64,000 nt of DNA, from the NCBI GenBank assembly GCA_902595805.1, contig CACJRM010000001.1, positions 99,806-163,805 of the forward strand. The letters run 5' to 3'. A program made the translations under genes and the position numbers. Positions 1-6,894 of this stretch are shown piece by piece; positions within the stretch are counted from its first letter, which is position 1, and each line of letters begins with the position of its first letter. The notes below the pieces were generated by a model, which saw nothing but the letters and a program-made list of their open reading frames with translations, was not told where the DNA came from and did no database searches. Origin of the DNA: an uncultured Alphaproteobacteria bacterium. GTDB lineage: Bacteria; Pseudomonadota; Alphaproteobacteria; HIMB59; GCA-002718135.

Positions 1-957
1 CAACGAAATAGAACTTTCGCAGTTATATTTTATTCTGGGCAGGGTACGGGTAAGAATATGTTCTTTAGTATCTTAAAAAGATTGTATGGCGCCTCTAATT
101 GTTCTTTTTTACGACTAGACCAGCTACTCGATAAGTTTCAACCCTTTATGTTAAGCTCTAATTATCTTTTCATAAGTGAAATCGATAGCACCGGTAAAGA
201 CATAAAGAGCAAACAAGCTAAACTGAGAGAGTTAATTTCAGATACAGATTTTATGGTCGAGATGAAAGGTGTCGATCTTATTCCTGTAACGAACTGTCAT
301 TATACAATCTGGGGAAGCACTAATGAACCTTACCCGTTATCTCTTCCGGGTGATGATCGTAGGACTATGTTTATAGATATAGGCGTTACGAAATATGAAA
401 TACTACAAAAGGATAAAGATTATTTTAAAAAGCTAGTAACTTTTAGAAAAGATCCTTTGAATATTGCTAGTGTGTATCATTATTTTAAAAACGTACACGT
501 TATATCAAAAGAATTTGATCCTAACGAGCCACCGGTAACAACAGCTAAAGATGAATTAATTGAAGCCAGTAAGCCTCAGTATATGAAAACTTTAGATGAT
601 TTGTTTGAAGGAGAAAAAATCGTTAGCTTTAAAAGAGATATTGTTAACGCAAAACTAATAACGCAAGAATTAAAAGCCTTAGAAGATTTTTCTATTATGA
701 GAGAAAATTTTACTGAGAATAAAGTTCTACGTTGGATAAGATTTAATCCTAAGAATTTCAGAATTCTAAAAGGCGAACCTTATCAAATACCGGGTTCATT
801 GCGAGGACGTTGTTGGGTTATACGTAACCACCCGTTCTGGAACCAACACAAAACTAGTAAAGAGATGATCGACCTACACTTTGAGAAGAAAGTCGAGACA
901 CCTTTATTTAAACAAAAGGATATTTATGACGAACAAAAAGATCAAATCCCCTTCTAG
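1..957 (+). CDS. Superfamily-3 (D5 / P4-alpha type) primase-helicase, C-terminal part; 5' end truncated by the window edge
   Basis: The frame of ORF 58..957 stays open back to base 1 (QRNRTFAVIFYSGQGTGKN before the first Met). Walker A GQGTGKN, Walker B YLFISEID and motif C TIWGSTNE occur in SF3 order and spacing. Confidence 0.7.
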   Translation, partial: QRNRTFAVIFYSGQGTGKNMFFSILKRLYGASNCSFLRLDQLLDKFQPFMLSSNYLFISEIDSTGKDIKSKQAKLRELISDTDFMVEMKGVDLIPVTNCHYTIWGSTNEPYPLSLPGDDRRTMFIDIGVTKYEILQKDKDYFKKLVTFRKDPLNIASVYHYFKNVHVISKEFDPNEPPVTTAKDELIEASKPQYMKTLDDLFEGEKIVSFKRDIVNAKLITQELKALEDFSIMRENFTENKVLRWIRFNPKNFRILKGEPYQIPGSLRGRCWVIRNHPFWNQHKTSKEMIDLHFEKKVETPLFKQKDIYDEQKDQIPF

Positions 958-1204
958 TTTAGTAGATATAGATGATATCTTTGATATTTCACAAATCCCT
1001 CACTTATCAAGTGGGGGAGATACTAAACCAGCAAAAGAAAAAGCAGCAACCTTACCGGTATCCAAGACCGGCAAAGGGGTAAGTATTTCATTTGAAGAAG
1101 TTTTAATCCGTGATCTCGTTAACGCTCAAACTTATATTAAGCAAAACGGTCTTGAAGAGGATTTTAATAAGTTCACGAAAAAATATACTAAAAAAAAGTT
1201 ATAA
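926..1204 (+). CDS. hypothetical protein of the mobile-element module (start moved from 881 to ATG 926)
   Basis: ATG at 926 lies 5 nt after AAGGA (916-920) and overlaps the helicase stop (955-957), suggesting translational coupling. I recognise no domain. Confidence 0.45.
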   Translation: MTNKKIKSPSSLVDIDDIFDISQIPHLSSGGDTKPAKEKAATLPVSKTGKGVSISFEEVLIRDLVNAQTYIKQNGLEEDFNKFTKKYTKKKL

Positions 1205-1234
1205 ATTTTTTTATAATTTTTTTTTTGCATACCT

Positions 1235-1254
1235 CCCCTAATAACTTTTAGGGG
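1235..1254 (+). terminator. possible intrinsic terminator of the helicase operon
   Basis: Hairpin CCCCTAA(1235-1241)-N6-TTAGGGG(1248-1254) is followed by U-rich TGTATGTTTGTCT. The tail is weak. Confidence 0.3.
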
Positions 1255-1376
1255 GTGTATGTTTGTCTCGATCATAGTCTTTAGCCTATCTCTATACAAC
1301 GACCCCCAATTTATGTCTCCCCCGGGGTGGGTAAGGGTCTTCATTCTGCTTATTTAAAAAATCTAAGTACCTAAGT

Positions 1377-1541
1377 TTAGGACTCAATAGTTATATTGTT
1401 GAATATAAAATAAAGGACAGCTAGATATATTATGCCAGATATAATTCTGATAATTCTCTTATCTTTATAAGTTTTGAAAACAACAAATCCATAGGTTGAT
1501 GAAATTAAGAAAATACCTATAGCCAATACCCAAGGTTGCAT
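1377..1541 (-). CDS. small 54-aa protein with two hydrophobic segments (below the ORF-track cutoff)
   Basis: Hand translation gives MQPWVLAIGIFLISSTYGFVVFKTYKDKRIIRIISGIIYLAVLYFIFNNITIES, from ATG 1541..1539 to TAA 1379..1377. Two TM-like stretches are separated by a KDKR loop. There is no SD and I recognise no homology. Confidence 0.3.
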   Translation of the reverse strand: MQPWVLAIGIFLISSTYGFVVFKTYKDKRIIRIISGIIYLAVLYFIFNNITIES

Positions 1542-1584
1542 AATTTTAGTATAAATTAAAACGTTACAAAATAAAATAATTTAA

Positions 1585-1745
1585 GCGGACGGAGTCCGCC
1601 GGAGGCGGAACGGCGATATCTTGCCCTTTAAAAGGATTCAGGAATCTGTCAGCGAGTTTGTAGGGGTAGAGCTGAGGTATGGATTCAAGCCTCTCTACAA
1701 GAATCTTTATCCCTTGTTTATGGGACAATAAAGAATCAAATAGAG
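1585..1745. other. GC-rich, hairpin-dense segment: candidate structured RNA or protein-binding region, identity unknown
   Basis: 25 of 31 nt are G/C at 1585-1615. GCGGAC-GGA-GTCCGC (1585-1599) and TCCGCC-GGA-GGCGGA (1595-1609) share bases 1595-1599 and so exclude each other. A second hairpin is GTAGA..GAGG-N12-CCTC-TCTAC (1665-1698). Confidence 0.3.
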
Positions 1746-1751
1746 CTGTTT

Positions 1752-1783
1752 TTTCGAATCACTTTCGAATCAATTCGATCCAC
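1752..1783 (+). repeat. three tandem iteron-like units with ~11-bp period
   Basis: The units are TTTCGAATCAC (1752-1762), TTTCGAATCAA (1763-1773) and TTCGA-TCCAC (1774-1783). Confidence 0.75.
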
Positions 1784-1874
1784 TTTTTATATAAAATTAA
1801 TCCCATATGTGATAACTTGGACCTTGTAGATATTTGACTTAAACTAAGGATTTCGTTAAAGGGATCACGTATCT

Positions 1875-1949
1875 TGGGGCGTCGCCAAGCGGTAAGGCAC
1901 CGGTTTTTGGAGTCGGCATTCGTAGGTTCGAATCCTACCGCCCCAGCCA
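1875..1949 (+). tRNA. tRNA-Gln (anticodon UUG), CCA encoded
   Basis: Cloverleaf: acceptor TGGGGCG/CGCCCCA, D arm GCCAAGCGGTAAGGC, anticodon stem CCGGT/GTCGG with loop TTTTGGA, T arm GTAGG-TTCGAAT-CCTAC. It is close to the E. coli tRNA-Gln sequence. Confidence 0.95.
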
Positions 1950-1952
1950 AAT

Positions 1953-2540
1953 TTAAAATTCTTTTTGAATTTTGTTTAGAGAGTTAACACTCTTCCAATA
2001 TAAATCATCAAATCTTTGGAAAAAGCTAATATTAATTATTTCTTTTTCTTTTACACCCCAAATATATTTTTTATCTATCCAACCTTTGTAATTTCTTGAT
2101 GACACTAAACACCAATCAATTTTACATTTTTCTAAAAAAACAATATTTCCCTTTCCTATTTCTCCAATAATATTGCCCTTCAAAGTGTTTAATAATTTAA
2201 TAGTATTATTATCATTTGATAAAATAATGCCTGTTCTAGTACCGGATATTAAACTTTTATGAATCCATCCAAAATTTTTCTGAAAATCTTCTACTTTTCT
2301 CCAATCTTCATACTCTTCTAATACTTTCAAGGGGTAATATTTTTTTATGTATTTAATTTCAATAGGGTAATTCTTACTTGGACCAACACGTATATTCGCA
2401 TCATTAGATTTTAAAGATACATACCTTGGAATTTCTAGACCAGTTTCCTTACCAATATCTGCATTACTTTCTTGGCTAAAAATTATAATTGAAATGAATG
2501 CTATTACAATTTGCATACTAAATATTTTATAAAGTAGCAT
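1953..2540 (-). CDS. secreted bacterial SH3-domain (DUF1058-like) protein
   Basis: Signal-peptide-like MQIVIAFISIIIFSQESNA precedes two SH3b-like halves (RVGPSKNYPI..WRKV; KGWIDKKYIWG). The ORF-track start at 2585 would overlap tRNA-Arg, so I use Met at 2540; Met at 2516 is the alternative. Confidence 0.75.
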   Translation of the reverse strand: MLLYKIFSMQIVIAFISIIIFSQESNADIGKETGLEIPRYVSLKSNDANIRVGPSKNYPIEIKYIKKYYPLKVLEEYEDWRKVEDFQKNFGWIHKSLISGTRTGIILSNDNNTIKLLNTLKGNIIGEIGKGNIVFLEKCKIDWCLVSSRNYKGWIDKKYIWGVKEKEIINISFFQRFDDLYWKSVNSLNKIQKEF

Positions 2541-2570
2541 AGGATTTATATAAAGTGTATAATATTTTAA

Positions 2571-2647
2571 GCGCCTGTAGCTCAATTGGATAGAGCGTAT
2601 GACTACGGATCATAAGGTTAGGAGTTCGACTCTTCTCAGGCGCGCCA
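2571..2647 (+). tRNA. tRNA-Arg (anticodon ACG), CCA encoded
   Basis: Acceptor GCGCCTG/CAGGCGC, D arm GCTCAATTGGATAGAGC, anticodon stem TATGA/TCATA with loop CTACGGA, T arm AGGAG-TTCGACT-CTTCT. Confidence 0.95.
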
Positions 2648-2650
2648 AAT

Positions 2651-2686
2651 CAAAAAAATACGATATTTTTGTACAAAAAAATACGA
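2651..2686 (+). repeat. perfect 13-nt direct repeat CAAAAAAATACGA x2, 4 nt downstream of tRNA-Arg
   Basis: The copies are at 2651-2663 and 2674-2686, a 23-nt period. Confidence 0.7.
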
Positions 2687-2708
2687 ATGTATATTACTAG
2701 TGATTAAT

Positions 2709-3731
2709 ATGTTAAGTGATATAAATTTAGATAGAATTAAAAGTGATAAAAATATTAGCGATTTATTTGTAAACGCAAGCTTTAGTTCTTTAGCCATAAA
2801 TTGTAATATTCTCAAAGGGAGTTTTTTTTCTGACGCATTTTACTATTTTCCAATTAGTAATAATAATCAGACATTTTCTTCGCTTTATTTGCGAGAGTTC
2901 AACAATCTTTCACATTTTTATACGGAAAAATTTTTTGAAAATTTTAATGAAAAAAAACATTCATTAAAATCTTTTAAAGATATTTATATATTAGGTTCAA
3001 ATTCTGGTAATAACTATTATTCCAATCTACTCCACTTTTTGCCTAGAATTTTTTTTAATAAACAAACAAATGTAAAAATTGCTATACATAGAAATTCTTC
3101 AAATAAATATAGGGAGTTTCTTAGAGCTATTCTTAATTCTCTTAAGATTGAATTCAATTTTATTTATTTAGATGATGATTTTTTTTATTTTCAAAATTCT
3201 GAATTTCCACAGTTTATGAGCATCAATGATTCTATAAAAATTTTAAAAAATTTTTTTAGTCCAAAAGCAAATCCTGAAAATAGTAAAAAAATTTACGTCA
3301 CAAGAGAAGACTCAAACTATAGAAGGATAATTAATGAGGGTGATATAATAACTCTTTTAAGAGAAAAAGGATATAGAGTTATTAATCCTCAATTATATGA
3401 AATTGAAGAACAAATAGAAATTTTTTCTAATGCTGAAAAAATTATTTCACCTTATGGGTCTAATTTGGCAAATATAATTTTTTGCAAGCCTGGGACAGAA
3501 ATAGTTGAAATTTCTCCTCCATTTACTGATAAAGAAAAGGTTTTCGATGAAAGATACTCCAACTTATCAATGCTTAATAAACTAAAGTACAATAAAATAG
3601 TTGCGGATACAATTGATGTTGAAAAACATTCTGAGCTAGCAAAAAAATATATTCATCCCAATATACTATCAAATAGTAATTATTACAAAAATTTAATTCT
3701 TAAAATTAAAGATTTAAAAGATATAATTTAA
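2709..3731 (+). CDS. glycosyltransferase family 61 / DUF563 protein
   Basis: The C-terminal half (YVTREDSNYRRIINE..ISPYGSNLANIIFCKPGTEIVEI) fits the DUF563/GT61 pattern. I prefer ATG 2709 to the GTG at 2700 in the ORF track. Confidence 0.7.
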   Translation: MLSDINLDRIKSDKNISDLFVNASFSSLAINCNILKGSFFSDAFYYFPISNNNQTFSSLYLREFNNLSHFYTEKFFENFNEKKHSLKSFKDIYILGSNSGNNYYSNLLHFLPRIFFNKQTNVKIAIHRNSSNKYREFLRAILNSLKIEFNFIYLDDDFFYFQNSEFPQFMSINDSIKILKNFFSPKANPENSKKIYVTREDSNYRRIINEGDIITLLREKGYRVINPQLYEIEEQIEIFSNAEKIISPYGSNLANIIFCKPGTEIVEISPPFTDKEKVFDERYSNLSMLNKLKYNKIVADTIDVEKHSELAKKYIHPNILSNSNYYKNLILKIKDLKDII

Positions 3732-4748
3732 TCAACATTTTTTAAAAAATAATGGAGTTAAAACATTAATGCTTGTTTCAAATTTTTTACAAACATTACT
3801 ATCAGAGTATTTAGATATATCATCATATTTAGATATTAAGCTTCCAATTAATGAAAGATCTTTTTTATTTTCATAAATCTTATAATCATTAAAATTATTT
3901 TCTTTAATAATATAATCTATTAAGCTTAAATAATCTAACTCTTCATCAATCAAGAAATTATTTTTAGCCTGATTGCTGTTATAAATTAGTGCACCAATAT
4001 TTTTTTTAATATAAGAAATTTCAATTTTTCTATTTTTTGAAACTTTGGCTACGAAATCATTATATATGTCGTCAACGATTTTTTGAAGATGTTCCACTTC
4101 CTTTTTTTCAGGACGTCTATAAGGATTAAATAAATCTTTACTTTGTCCTGCATTCTGATTGTAAACCTCGATTCCATTTTTTGTCTCTATAGATTGGTTT
4201 AATATGCCGTACGATAAGCTAATTGGTGTATTATAATAAAACCAACTTGGTCCACTGACACCAATACTTCCTATCATTGAACCATAAGATGCGAATATTT
4301 TGTCAGCAGAGGTTGCGATCCAGTAACCTCCTGATGCCAATATTTCAGTCGTATAAAAATATAATTTAACATTTGTTTTCTTTTTGAATTCATAAAAAAT
4401 ATTTTCTAGTTCAGCTGTAGCACTTACTGTCCCTCCTGGTGAATTAATATTTACAAGTAAAACTTTAATTTTAAGTTCTTTTAATTCATCTAAATAAGAT
4501 TGAATTTCCTTAGGATTGATGTAAGCATAAAAGTCACTTACAAAAAGATCATGGGTATTATGAAAAATTGGACCATTAAGATTCATATTTACTATAATAT
4601 TTTTGGAGTTTTCATTACCCTTTGTTATTTGAAATCGTTGATTTTTAAAATCATTTGAAAAATAAAATAAAATATTGAGAATTATTATAAAAACTAAAAG
4701 AGCAACAAAAAAACCAAGAGTTCTCAAAAATACATTAAAAAAGACCAT
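3732..4748 (-). CDS. sppA: signal peptide peptidase SppA (36K type, S49 family)
   Basis: N-terminal TM segment, with the motifs INSPGGTVSA and ASGGYWIA. Confidence 0.85.
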   Translation of the reverse strand: MVFFNVFLRTLGFFVALLVFIIILNILFYFSNDFKNQRFQITKGNENSKNIIVNMNLNGPIFHNTHDLFVSDFYAYINPKEIQSYLDELKELKIKVLLVNINSPGGTVSATAELENIFYEFKKKTNVKLYFYTTEILASGGYWIATSADKIFASYGSMIGSIGVSGPSWFYYNTPISLSYGILNQSIETKNGIEVYNQNAGQSKDLFNPYRRPEKKEVEHLQKIVDDIYNDFVAKVSKNRKIEISYIKKNIGALIYNSNQAKNNFLIDEELDYLSLIDYIIKENNFNDYKIYENKKDLSLIGSLISKYDDISKYSDSNVCKKFETSINVLTPLFFKKC

Positions 4749-4798
4749 TTTTTAAAATACCATAAGTTTGTTTAATTAGATTTTTTTTTAGTTTTTTC

Positions 4799-4827
4799 CT
4801 TGAATATAGCCCAATAATGCTTAAATA
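4799..4827 (+). promoter_or_regulatory. groESL promoter (CTTGAA-N17-TAAATA), also close to the alphaproteobacterial sigma-32 form CTTG-N17-CYTATNT
   Basis: CTTGAA lies at 4799-4804 and TAAATA at 4822-4827. Read as CTTG(4799-4802)-N17-CTTAAAT(4820-4826), it matches 6 of 7 positions of the RpoH -10 consensus as I recall it. Confidence 0.5.
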
Positions 4828-4828
4828 A

Positions 4829-4855
4829 CTAGCACTCTTATGATGAGAGTGCTAA
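4829..4855 (+). promoter_or_regulatory. CIRCE operator (HrcA binding site)
   Basis: cTAGCACTC-TTATGATGA-GAGTGCTAA matches the consensus TTAGCACTC-N9-GAGTGCTAA at 17 of 18 positions, 44 nt upstream of groES. Confidence 0.9.
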
Positions 4856-4898
4856 TAAAAAATTATTAAATTTCAATTAGTTAACAAAAAGAGGAAAT

Positions 4899-5204
4899 AT
4901 GAATTTTAGACCTTTACATGACAGAGTTTTAGTCAAAAGAGTAGACTCTGATCAAAAAACGGCAGGGGGTATAATCATCCCTGACACTGCTCAAGAAAAA
5001 CCAATGGAAGGTGAGGTATTAGAAGTTGGTTCTGGAGCAAGAGATGAAACAGGAAAACTAGTACCTTTGGATGTCAAAAAAGGAGATAAAATACTTTTTG
5101 GAAAATGGTCTGGTACTGAGGTAAAAATGAATGGTGATGATTTTTTAATTATGAAAGAGTCTGACATCATGGGAATTATAACTTCAGGTAAAAAAAAGAA
5201 ATAG
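4899..5204 (+). CDS. groES: co-chaperonin GroES
   Basis: Full-length Cpn10 sequence ([20 protein letters not shown]). Confidence 0.97.
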
Positions 5205-5211
5205 TAATTAA

Positions 5212-6894
<1,683 letters not shown>

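What the first reader, a model, noticed from the sequence alone, without database searches (positions are those of the whole stretch)
1..1204. Window opens inside a mobile-element replication module with an SF3 primase-helicase
The reading frame of ORF 58..957 is open to base 1, and the 19 codons before the first Met contain a P-loop (YSGQGTGKN). Together with YLFISEID and TIWGSTNE this gives SF3 helicase motifs A, B and C in the correct order.

D5/P4-alpha type SF3 helicases belong to phages, phage satellites (the P4 and PICI Pri/Rep type), plasmids and integrative elements, not to the cellular replisome. The segment is visibly less AT-rich than the host genes to its right, and it ends next to a tRNA gene.

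Integrated elements are rare in SAR11-type genomes. As far as I recall, cultured pelagiphage podoviruses use T7 gp4-like helicases instead. An SF3-based element here could therefore be a new kind of prophage or satellite. Only its last ~1.2 kb of coding sequence is visible.
Basis: partly seen in the sequence, partly recalled or inferred. Interest (0 to 1): 0.6.

Follow-up and report, generated by a model that had tools for sequence, protein, structure and literature searches.

The report
Small mobile replicon in tRNA-Gln
The window opens inside the replication gene of a roughly 6-kb self-replicating mobile element lodged in the glutamine tRNA gene of a SAR11-type marine bacterium; it is a new family member of the small marine "satellite-like" elements already described, not a new kind of element.

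Summary
Frame 1 is open from base 1 to the stop at 955-957. It encodes the last 318 residues of a 689-aa primase-helicase with an N-terminal Toprim domain and an SF3 (NrS-1/D5-like, DUF5906) helicase core.

The gene belongs to a conserved seven-gene element of about 6.1 kb: tyrosine integrase, two small regulators, a CHC2 zinc ribbon, an unknown ORF, the primase-helicase and a small ORF. Marine metagenomes hold it as self-closing circles and multi-copy concatemers.

The element's junction with the host lies inside tRNA-Gln (1875-1949), not beside it. The circular form carries the first 41 nt of tRNA-Gln plus a promoter-like upstream region. The integrated element therefore sits upstream of the tRNA and supplies its 5' half. 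None of 37 related single-cell genomes has the element here. One carries a relative (integrase 74% identical) in the same tRNA with the opposite, canonical polarity.

In a 99.95%-identical genome no integrase lies within 6 kb upstream, so this copy is either stranded or cargo-carrying.

This matches the VEIME/tycheposon-like elements already reported in Pelagibacter. It is a new member of a known kind, of moderate interest.

The parts
1..957 (+). 3' 954 nt (residues 372-689 of 689) of the Toprim-SF3 primase-helicase gene. Walker A is at 31-57, Walker B at 163-186, motif C at 304-327 and the Arg finger at 352-363. The C-terminal helical/beta domain is encoded from about nt 430.
   Evidence: Searches support the helicase assignment. 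The fragment is 100% identical to P0015 residues 372-689. The AF2 model of P0015 has pLDDT 88. Foldseek matches are the NrS-1 helicase (1.7e-18), the SaPI5 primase-helicase (1.8e-10) and poxvirus D5/E5.
926..1204 (+). Small ORF (92 aa from the ATG at 926; 107 aa from the TTG at 881) overlapping the helicase 3' end. It is the last gene of the element and its function is unknown.
   Evidence: It is conserved in position in every family member at 32-95% identity. The exact protein is called in SAG contig CABZQA010000002.1. It has no Pfam, PHROG, PADLOC, NCBIfam or phage-database hit.
1205..1874 (.). Non-coding right arm of the element. It holds the likely cis-acting sites (origin and/or integrase arm sites) and ends in the element-borne upstream region of tRNA-Gln.
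   Evidence: It is homologous to the stretch between the last ORF and the integrase in circular or tandem relatives (alignments A1 and A2; blastn 90% identity for 1596-1915 against L004). It is absent upstream of tRNA-Gln in the related genomes, whose similarity to the window starts at 1874.
1377..1559 (-). 183-nt insertion specific to this lineage (also present in L059). It contains a 54-aa strongly hydrophobic ORF at 1377-1541 on the minus strand.
   Evidence: L003 is 98% identical on both sides but has 31 nt here instead. The ORF is listed and has only sub-threshold family hits.
1596..1608 (.). G+C-rich hairpin with a GGA triloop (CCGCC-GGA-GGCGG), conserved in the family.
   Evidence: Relatives keep the stem through paired changes: CCGGC/GCCGG in L006 and L007, CCCCCC-GAA-GGGGGG in L002. 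No T-run follows and there is no Rfam match.
1592..1771 (.). Cluster of 8 GANTC sites, 7 of them GAATC/GATTC. They are candidate iterons of the origin or integrase arm sites. GANTC is also the motif methylated in Pelagibacter.
   Evidence: There are 8 sites in 180 nt, against 1.85 per kb in the host part. No host 181-nt window has more than 3, and 1-1204 has none. The equivalent regions of L001, L002, L004, L007 and L058 hold 7-10 copies. GANTC methylation in Pelagibacter is reported in PMC9516812.
1834..1862 (+). Promoter-like TTGACT, a 17-nt spacer, then TAAAGG, ending 12 nt before the tRNA. It is carried by the element.
   Evidence: This is read from the sequence. The same geometry is seen in attP of L004, L007 and L058 and in host copies (TTGACT-17-TAGAGA). 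The strict consensus scan did not flag it, so the assignment is inferred.
1875..1949 (+). tRNA-Gln(UUG), which forms the right junction (attR). The 5' part comes from the element and the 3' part from the host.
   Evidence: ARAGORN and Rfam identify the tRNA. All element loci stop matching the window at 1914/1915. Related genomes start matching at 1874.
1905..1915 (+). Inferred recombination core: the anticodon loop plus the 3' strand of the anticodon stem (TTTTGGAGTCG).
   Evidence: This is the overlap of two identity blocks. One is tRNA positions 1-41, carried by attP of this family. The other runs from position 31 to the 3' end and is carried by the related L024 element and by other islands in this tRNA. 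The core is inferred, not shown.

Best explanation
Window 1-1915 is the right-hand end of a small integrative, self-replicating element of about 6.1 kb in its simplest form.

The gene order is tyrosine integrase, p165, a small HTH-like protein, a CHC2 zinc-ribbon protein, p162, a Toprim-SF3 primase-helicase and a small ORF. A non-coding arm of about 650 nt follows, ending in the att site.

The element moves by site-specific recombination in the anticodon loop of the host tRNA-Gln. Its att site carries tRNA positions 1-41 plus about 150-200 nt of promoter-bearing upstream sequence. After integration the element therefore lies upstream of the tRNA. The intact tRNA-Gln is a hybrid, with promoter and 5' half from the element and 3' half from the host. 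A broken copy should remain at the integrase end.

Once excised, the circle is presumably replicated by its own primase-helicase. The Toprim domain and the separately encoded zinc ribbon would prime, and the SF3 hexamer would unwind. The origin is probably in the GAATC-repeat/hairpin region at 1590-1790.

The element encodes no capsid or packaging genes. Spread between cells most likely depends on a helper phage, packaged as concatemers like the marine VEIME satellites, or on vesicles.

What is shown: the protein identity, the gene order, the circular or tandem forms, the tRNA-derived att site and the absence from related genomes. What is inferred: the crossover position, the origin, promoter use and helper dependence.

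In the genome that matches the window, the integrase end is either deleted or separated by at least 6 kb of cargo.
For: Protein identity. DUF5906 scores 7e-14, and PHROG and PDB matches agree. The full-length AF2 model (pLDDT 88) matches the NrS-1 helicase, the SaPI5 primase-helicase, PriRep1 and poxvirus D5/E5. It also matches a TOPRIM-annotated phage protein over 699 columns (1e-31). The EGE and DxD motifs are conserved. The N-terminus hits Rickettsia plasmid toprim proteins and distant homologues carry Toprim_2. A CHC2 zinc-ribbon ORF lies upstream.

Element anatomy. The gene order is identical in 13 metagenome loci and in L052-L058. The integrase matches Phage_integrase at 1e-24 and PHROG 1 at 2e-59.

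Circular or tandem forms. L007, L008 and L009 have exact terminal overlaps of 99, 123 and 45 nt, giving circles of 6108, 6109 and 6835 nt. One contig holds 3.4 copies of a 6106-nt unit. L052 holds two tandem copies.

att site. attP of L004, L005, L007, L008 and L058 contains tRNA-Gln nt 1-40/41 and then diverges. Element similarity to the window ends at 1914/1915, and host similarity begins at 1874.

Mobility. Of 37 related genomes, 0 have the element here, and 23 have a simple locus. SAG AG-913-F06 (L024) has a related element (integrase 74%, primase-helicase 34% identical) in the same tRNA.

Literature. Small integrase plus primase/helicase elements without capsid genes are packaged as concatemers and found integrated in Pelagibacter (PMC9618062, PMC11876622). 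Pelagiphages also reconstitute the 5' end of SAR11 tRNAs on integration (bioRxiv 10.1101/410191).
Against: The left end of this copy was not seen. In L059 (99.95% identical to window 1-2010) family similarity stops 175 nt downstream of where the integrase gene would end. No integrase or partial tRNA-Gln occurs in the 6 kb further upstream. This copy may therefore no longer be mobile.

No gene points to a helper phage. p165, p162 and the last ORF have no phage, PHROG or PADLOC match. The metagenome contigs come from unknown size fractions, so encapsidation is not shown.

Self-closing contigs cannot separate free circles from tandem chromosomal arrays. The copies in the 3.4-mer differ only at ambiguity codes and a few bases, so it could be an assembly artefact of a circle.

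The origin and promoter assignments rest on motif patterns only.
Confidence: 0.8

Rival explanations
1. This copy is a stranded, integrase-less remnant. The replication module and right arm were kept because the arm now provides the promoter and 5' half of tRNA-Gln, while the integrase and left junction were deleted.
For: L059 has no integrase and no second tRNA-Gln fragment within 10 kb upstream of the last ORF. A metagenome contig (L003, 98% identical) shares the same breakpoint. SAG L046 shows a remnant upstream of tRNA-Gln with only a cargo-like gene, 47% identical to a cargo ORF of L002.
Against: All five replication-module ORFs are intact, and the primase-helicase differs by at most one residue in 689 between the SAG and a metagenome protein (P0015). 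The breakpoint coincides with the slot where relatives L002 and L058 carry cargo between the integrase and p165. The integrase could therefore lie more than 6 kb further upstream, beyond what could be fetched.
Confidence: 0.45
2. It is an integrative plasmid-like or tycheposon-like element that needs no helper phage. It would replicate as a circle and spread through vesicles or not at all.
For: No terminase, capsid-remodelling or interference gene was detected. Circular forms exist. Relatives have cargo slots. Tycheposons and some concatemeric elements are found in vesicles (bioRxiv 10.1101/2020.12.28.424599; PMC9618062; PMC11876622).
Against: Three of seven genes have no known function, so a hijacking function cannot be excluded. 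Published capsid-less marine satellites are equally bare. The multi-copy contigs fit concatemer packaging.
Confidence: 0.3
3. It is the tail end of a conventional prophage whose structural genes lie upstream of the window.
For: SF3 primase-helicases are common in phages. Temperate pelagiphages integrate into SAR11 tRNAs in the same 5'-complementing way (bioRxiv 10.1101/410191).
Against: Complete circles of the family are 6.1-6.8 kb with seven to ten small genes and no structural gene. There is no DNA similarity to any of 50,697 phage records. The 6 kb upstream in L059 has no phage-like gene.
Confidence: 0.03
4. It is a cellular, non-mobile helicase gene that happens to lie next to a tRNA.
For: None beyond its chromosomal location.
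Against: It is absent from the locus in 37 related genomes. A peptide-pattern scan of one genome per species (185,579 species) found no close relative. All homologues come from marine metagenome contigs carrying the element's gene set.
Confidence: 0.01

Closest known systems
VEIMEs, the virion-encapsidated integrative mobile elements / marine phage satellites (Eppley et al. 2022, PMC9618062; Pelagibacter examples also in PMC11876622)
   Same: Monomer size falls within their range of under 5 to 16.8 kb. They carry a tyrosine integrase plus a primase/helicase and small DNA-binding regulators, with no capsid genes. They are found integrated in Pelagibacter-type genomes and occur as multi-copy concatemers or circles.
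   Different: Encapsidation of this family was not shown here. No sequence comparison with the published VEIME set was possible. No HNH endonuclease, terminase small subunit or other module-specific gene was found.
Tycheposons (Hackl et al., bioRxiv 10.1101/2020.12.28.424599; Cell 2023 from my own knowledge)
   Same: Integration at tRNA genes is driven by a tyrosine recombinase. Hallmark primase/helicase genes are present, with both PICI-like and cargo-carrying variants. Tandem elements are separated by partial tRNAs, and islands grow at the tRNA.
   Different: They were described mainly in Prochlorococcus. Membership of this integrase in the tycheposon recombinase clade was not tested. Here the element carries the 5' half of the tRNA, so the island grows upstream of the gene.
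PICIs / SaPI Pri-Rep replication modules (SaPI5 primase-helicase, PDB 7OLA; PriRep1, 7PDS)
   Same: It works the same way: an integrase plus a self-encoded primase-helicase with an SF3 core. The fold matches SaPI5 at E=1.8e-10. An origin-like repeat region lies next to the replication gene.
   Different: The element is half the size. No terS, capsid-morphogenesis or interference genes were detected. The primase domain is Toprim-like with a separate zinc ribbon. Sequence identity to the SaPI5 protein is about 13%.
Satellite phage P4 alpha protein (primase, SF3 helicase and ori-binding domain)
   Same: It has the same three-part logic in one polypeptide: an N-terminal primase, a central SF3 helicase and a C-terminal domain that could bind the origin (domain logic from established knowledge).
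   Different: It is not a member of the P4 family model (TIGR01613 scores 16.5 bits against a cutoff of 108.7). The closest helicase by sequence and fold is NrS-1-like/DUF5906.
HTVC019P-type temperate pelagiphages (Zhao et al., bioRxiv 10.1101/410191)
   Same: They have the same host group and the same unusual att logic. The phage-borne partial 5' end of a tRNA reconstitutes the SAR11 tRNA after integration.
   Different: Those are 35-45-kb podoviruses with structural genes, and their targets are tRNA-Cys, -Leu and -Arg. The integrase here has no close pelagiphage relative; its best phage hits are about 31% identical, from Pseudomonas and Ralstonia phages.
PICMIs, the minimalist satellites of marine Vibrionaceae (bioRxiv 10.1101/2023.07.18.549517)
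   Same: They are very small marine satellites without capsid-remodelling genes, packaged as concatemers (as stated in that abstract).
   Different: They have a different host phylum branch and gene set. No homology was tested or seen.

Membership tests
SF3 helicase, NrS-1/D5-like (Pfam DUF5906) | Walker A GxxxxGK, Walker B acidic residue, motif C Asn and arginine finger, in that order | tested here: met
   The motifs are at nt 31-57, 163-186, 304-327 and 352-363. G, K, E, N and R are invariant in a 28-sequence alignment. The residue after the Walker A lysine is Asn rather than Ser/Thr. NrS-1 has Gly at that position.
SF3 helicase, NrS-1/D5-like (Pfam DUF5906) | Profile score above the curated threshold | tested here: met
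   DUF5906 scores 52.8 bits against a gathering score of 27.6, E=7e-14.
SF3 helicase, NrS-1/D5-like (Pfam DUF5906) | Fold of solved SF3 primase-helicases | tested here: met
   The AF2 model (pLDDT 88) matches 6k9c at 1.7e-18, 7ola at 1.8e-10 and MPXV E5/vaccinia D5 at about 1e-8.
Toprim (DnaG-type) primase domain | Conserved Glu (EGE) and DxD acidic motifs, with a profile or fold match to Toprim | tested here: inconclusive
   EGE102-104 is invariant and D148 is nearly invariant. There is a full-length fold match to a TOPRIM-annotated phage protein (1e-31). Rickettsia plasmid toprim proteins match at 1e-5. Homologues P0031 and P0038 carry Toprim_2. However, there is no direct Pfam Toprim hit (only DUF6371 at 0.013) and no PDB sequence hit.
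P4-alpha family primase-helicase | Match to TIGR01613 (phage/plasmid primase, P4 family, C-terminal domain) above its cutoff | tested here: not met
   The score is 16.5 bits against a cutoff of 108.7.
PICI (phage-inducible chromosomal island) | Integrase at one end, site-specific attachment site | tested here: inconclusive
   This is met in the family. It was not seen within 6 kb upstream in the genome matching the window.
PICI (phage-inducible chromosomal island) | Packaging or interference genes (terS, capsid morphogenesis, ppi) | tested here: not met
   No such hit was found in Pfam, PHROGs, NCBIfam, PADLOC or the phage database for any of the seven ORFs.
PICI (phage-inducible chromosomal island) | Induction and packaging by a helper phage | not testable with these tools
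   This needs infection experiments or virion sequencing.
VEIME marine phage satellites | Small monomer (under 5 to 16.8 kb), integrase, replication genes, no capsid genes, integrated in marine bacterioplankton | tested here: met
   Units are 6.1-6.8 kb. The gene set is shown. Integrated copies are in the window and in SAG L024.
VEIME marine phage satellites | Concatemers inside virus particles | tested here: inconclusive
   Multi-copy and self-closing contigs exist, but the size fraction of those metagenomes is unknown. The IMG/VR scan found no relative.
Tycheposons | Integrase belongs to the deep-branching tycheposon tyrosine-recombinase clade | not tested
   No reference sequences were available. 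The closest phage integrases are about 31% identical.
Tycheposons | Integration at a tRNA gene leaving partial tRNA copies; tandem elements separated by partial tRNAs | tested here: met
   The attP and inter-copy junctions hold tRNA-Gln nt 1-41. The tandem contigs are shown.
Temperate pelagiphage (HTVC019P-type) | Phage structural and packaging genes | tested here: not met
   There are none in the complete units and no DNA match to phage records.

The most novel reading that the evidence does not exclude
Closely related integrases (74% identical) recombine at the same anticodon loop of the same tRNA-Gln, but their elements carry opposite halves of the gene.

One lineage inserts downstream and restores the 3' half. 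This lineage inserts upstream and restores the 5' half together with its own promoter. A single tRNA gene thus seeds islands on both sides. In carriers, tRNA-Gln is transcribed from element DNA.

That promoter sits beside a conserved cluster of GANTC (CcrM-type) sites, which may double as the element's origin. This could couple element replication or tRNA expression to the host's methylation cycle. It could also make loss of the right arm costly, which would explain an integrase-less copy that keeps an intact replication module.
Probability: 0.25. Interest if true: 0.6.

Novelty: new member of a known kind. Interest (0 to 1): 0.38.

Why it matters
SAR11 is among the most abundant bacteria in the ocean and was long thought nearly free of mobile elements. 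This locus gives a fully dissected example of one of its small integrative replicons. The dissection covers gene order, circular form, attachment site to within about 10 nt, target tRNA and a natural series of occupied, empty and remnant sites.

It shows that the 5'-complementing mode of tRNA integration, known from pelagiphages, is also used by capsid-less elements. It also shows that tRNA-Gln is a two-sided hotspot. The primase-helicase family (Toprim plus an NrS-1-like SF3 core, with a split zinc ribbon) is confined to marine metagenomes and has no characterised member.

None of this changes the known categories. The value is as a well-defined model for testing helper dependence, origin function and tRNA promoter replacement in SAR11.

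Tried and rejected
- Peptide-pattern scans with the helicase found nothing in one-genome-per-species contigs or in IMG/VR. The family is missed there or absent.
- AF2 on the 318-aa window fragment with 13 sequences gave an unusable model (pLDDT 44). The full-length homologue with 28 sequences worked.
- A PDB sequence search with the N-terminal 345 aa gave only noise.
- Rfam found no RNA family in 1-6000 other than the two tRNAs.
- The consensus promoter/terminator scan flagged nothing convincing in the right arm.
- p165, p162 and the last ORF had no hits in the phage database, PADLOC or NCBIfam.
- The integrase shows no special relation to pelagiphage integrases.
- The supplementary VEIME tables are not held.
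- I first suspected that the degenerate hairpin at 1660-1700 was a tRNA 3' fragment marking attR. I rejected this once the alignments showed the junction inside tRNA-Gln.
- The idea that the GAATCA/CACTTTTT motif is a general SAR11 tRNA-upstream motif was not supported by the tRNA-Arg upstream region.
- GANTC depletion of the element as a whole was checked and not found. Only the cluster stands out.
Full report
**1. The observation**

Frame 1 is open from base 1 to the stop at 955-957. The 318 residues contain YSGQGTGKN (nt 31-57), YLFISEID (163-186), TIWGSTNE (304-327) and a DDRR arginine finger (352-363).

- They match Pfam DUF5906 at E=7e-14, above the curated threshold.
- They match the C-terminal part of PHROG 'DNA primase' families.
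- They match the helicase region of the phage NrS-1 primase-polymerase in PDB.
- tRNA-Gln(UUG) is at 1875-1949 and tRNA-Arg(ACG) at 2571-2647.
- To the right lie ordinary host genes: an SH3-domain protein, a GT61 glycosyltransferase, an S49 peptidase and groES/groEL.
- The segment is slightly richer in G+C than the rest of the window (0.338 against 0.292), but 8.6% of host windows are as high.

The ORF start at 58 is only mechanical.

**2. The whole protein**

A metagenome contig (L003) and a single-cell genome contig (L059, GCA_902527735.1) are 98% and 99.95% identical to the start of the window. Both show the full gene of 689 aa. The window's part is 100% identical to residues 372-689 of P0015.

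An AlphaFold model of P0015 built on 28 homologues is confident (pLDDT 88). Its best solved-structure matches are the NrS-1 helicase region (1.7e-18), the SaPI5 satellite primase-helicase (1.8e-10), PriRep1, poxvirus D5/E5 and the ASFV PrimPol.

Several lines point to a Toprim domain at the N-terminus.

- Among predicted viral structures the best match is a full-length alignment to a TOPRIM (DnaG/twinkle)-annotated phage protein (1e-31).
- The N-terminal third has conserved EGE and DxD motifs.
- It hits 'toprim domain-containing' proteins of Rickettsia plasmids.
- It is homologous to proteins with Pfam Toprim_2.
- It does not reach a Toprim profile directly.
- A separate 89-aa ORF just upstream is a DnaG-type CHC2 zinc ribbon.

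The protein is not a P4-alpha family member (TIGR01613 scores 16.5 bits against 108.7).

**3. The element**

Every locus that encodes a relative has the same gene order. These are 13 metagenome contigs plus L052-L058, at 33-100% protein identity. The order is:

- tyrosine integrase (335-345 aa; Phage_integrase 1e-24, PHROG 1 2e-59)
- a 165-aa protein
- a roughly 90-aa weakly HTH-like protein
- the zinc ribbon
- a 160-aa protein
- the primase-helicase
- a small ORF (926-1204 in the window)
- about 650 nt of non-coding DNA, followed by the integrase again

This is documented.

The last point is the key to topology. Three contigs close on themselves with exact terminal overlaps, giving circles of 6108, 6109 and 6835 nt. 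One 20.8-kb contig holds 3.4 copies of a 6106-nt unit. Another holds two non-identical tandem copies. No structural, packaging or known defence gene is present. Some relatives carry one or two unrelated genes between the integrase and the 165-aa gene, which marks a cargo slot.

**4. The attachment site**

In the circles, the stretch just before the integrase is homologous to window 1596-1874. It continues into the first 40-41 nt of tRNA-Gln and then diverges. All element loci stop matching the window at 1914/1915.

Conversely, 37 related single-cell genomes, found through the neighbouring SH3 gene, start matching the window at 1874, the first base of the tRNA. The window therefore shows attR. 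Everything up to the anticodon stem-loop comes from the element, and the rest of the tRNA and the flank come from the host.

The element-borne part includes TTGACT-17 nt-TAAAGG ending 12 nt before the tRNA. Host copies use the same geometry (TTGACT-17-TAGAGA). Promoter use is my inference.

This upstream, 5'-complementing mode is the mirror image of the textbook case. It has, however, been demonstrated for several pelagiphages on SAR11 tRNAs (bioRxiv 10.1101/410191).

**5. A natural comparison series**

- Of the 37 genomes, 23 have a simple locus.
- About 13 have islands of 0.6-5.7 kb between a full tRNA-Gln and a partial 3' copy that starts at the anticodon loop.
- None has the window's element.
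- One island (SAG AG-913-F06, L024) is a complete relative of the element. Its integrase is 74% and its primase-helicase 34% identical, with the same gene order. It is inserted with the canonical polarity: full tRNA, integrase, remaining genes, then a partial tRNA from TTTTGGAGTCGG onward.
- The two identity blocks (positions 1-41 and 31-75) overlap in 11 nt, window 1905-1915. I take this as the recombination core (inferred).
- Another genome (L046) has, upstream of tRNA-Gln, only a gene 47% identical to a cargo gene of relative L002. This looks like a remnant of an upstream-type element.

**6. The state of this copy**

In L059 the family similarity ends 175 nt downstream of where the integrase gene would stop. 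Upstream lie at least 6 kb of small membrane or secreted proteins of unknown function. There is no integrase and no second tRNA-Gln fragment. L003 shares that breakpoint.

Either the integrase end was lost, or it lies beyond a long cargo segment. I could not read further. All replication-module ORFs are intact.

**7. Cis elements in the right arm**

Window 1592-1771 holds 8 GANTC sites, 7 of them GAATC/GATTC. The host part has 1.85 per kb, and no host window of that size has more than 3. The cluster is kept (7-10 copies) in relatives down to 62% protein identity. These repeats are candidate origin iterons or integrase arm sites. GANTC is also the motif methylated genome-wide in Pelagibacter (PMC9516812).

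A G+C-rich hairpin with a GGA/GAA triloop (1596-1608) is preserved through compensatory changes. It fits no Rfam family or terminator pattern. Its function is unknown.

**8. Mechanism and rivals**

The best-supported account is a small integrative replicon. It recombines in the anticodon loop of tRNA-Gln and replicates as a circle with its own Toprim-SF3 primase-helicase. Lacking any particle genes, it depends on a helper phage or vesicles to spread.

This is what has been described as VEIME satellites and PICI-like tycheposons, including in Pelagibacter (PMC9618062; PMC11876622; bioRxiv 10.1101/2020.12.28.424599). Helper dependence is inferred, not shown, and a plasmid-like or vesicle-borne lifestyle remains a real rival. 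A conventional prophage and a cellular gene are excluded by the complete 6-kb circles and by absence from related genomes.

**9. Verdict**

The novelty is modest: a new, well-resolved family within a known kind. Three details are worth a specialist's attention. Related integrases show opposite polarity at one tRNA. The element supplies the tRNA promoter next to a GANTC cluster. One copy appears to lack an integrase yet keeps an intact replication module.

Noticed in passing
window 2571-2647 and downstream; L014, L031, L033, L047, L042: tRNA-Arg(ACG), only about 620 nt from tRNA-Gln, is a second insertion hotspot. Four related genomes have insertions of roughly 0.5 to 8 kb starting right after it. 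One (L042) has a distant integrase-like match there. A pelagiphage (HTVC120P) is reported to target a SAR11 tRNA-Arg.
   Followed up: partly
window 1377-1559 (minus-strand ORF 1377-1541): A 183-nt insertion is present in the window and in L059 but replaced by 31 nt in the 98%-identical contig L003. It encodes a 54-aa very hydrophobic peptide, which could be a small membrane toxin or chance. It has no significant family match.
   Followed up: partly
window 1700-1874 versus L014/L026/L024 upstream of tRNA-Gln: The usual host region upstream of tRNA-Gln weakly resembles the element's right arm. It shares the TTGAATCAAT...GATCACTTTTT block and the TTGACTTA promoter (local alignment z = 3-6 against shuffles). 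The tRNA-Ser-type relative L001 has the same block. Either the element captured a host tRNA-Gln locus, or the host region is a fossil of an old upstream insertion.
   Followed up: partly
L001 1090-1140, L009, L010; L002 1-48: A sister subfamily (primase-helicase about 77% identical) carries what looks like the 5' half of tRNA-Ser(GGA) in its attP instead of tRNA-Gln. The more distant L002 starts with the 3' end of a long-variable-arm tRNA, with matching acceptor sequence, directly before its integrase. Target switching within the family was not analysed further.
   Followed up: partly
L004 7297-7320; L007 3805-3830: After tRNA-Gln position 41, the attP sequence (ATGTTCCCTTGTTAATTTCCCA) still resembles the tRNA's T-arm region in 11 of 22 positions. 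The attP may descend from a complete captured tRNA gene whose 3' half has decayed.
   Followed up: no
P0014 (878-nt ENA contig): A predicted protein fuses the N-terminus of succinyl-CoA synthetase beta (ATP-grasp) to the last ~90 residues of this helicase family. It is probably a chimeric assembly or an element fragment next to sucC.
   Followed up: no
L059 1-6022: The 6 kb upstream of the element in the matching genome encodes about ten small signal-peptide, lipoprotein or multi-TM proteins with no family assignment and one MORN-repeat protein. It has no similarity to the same region of 37 related genomes. It is either cargo of the element or part of a hypervariable island.
   Followed up: partly
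window 31-57: The Walker A motif ends in GKN rather than GK[ST] in this subfamily. Relatives have GKT and NrS-1 has GKG.
   Followed up: no
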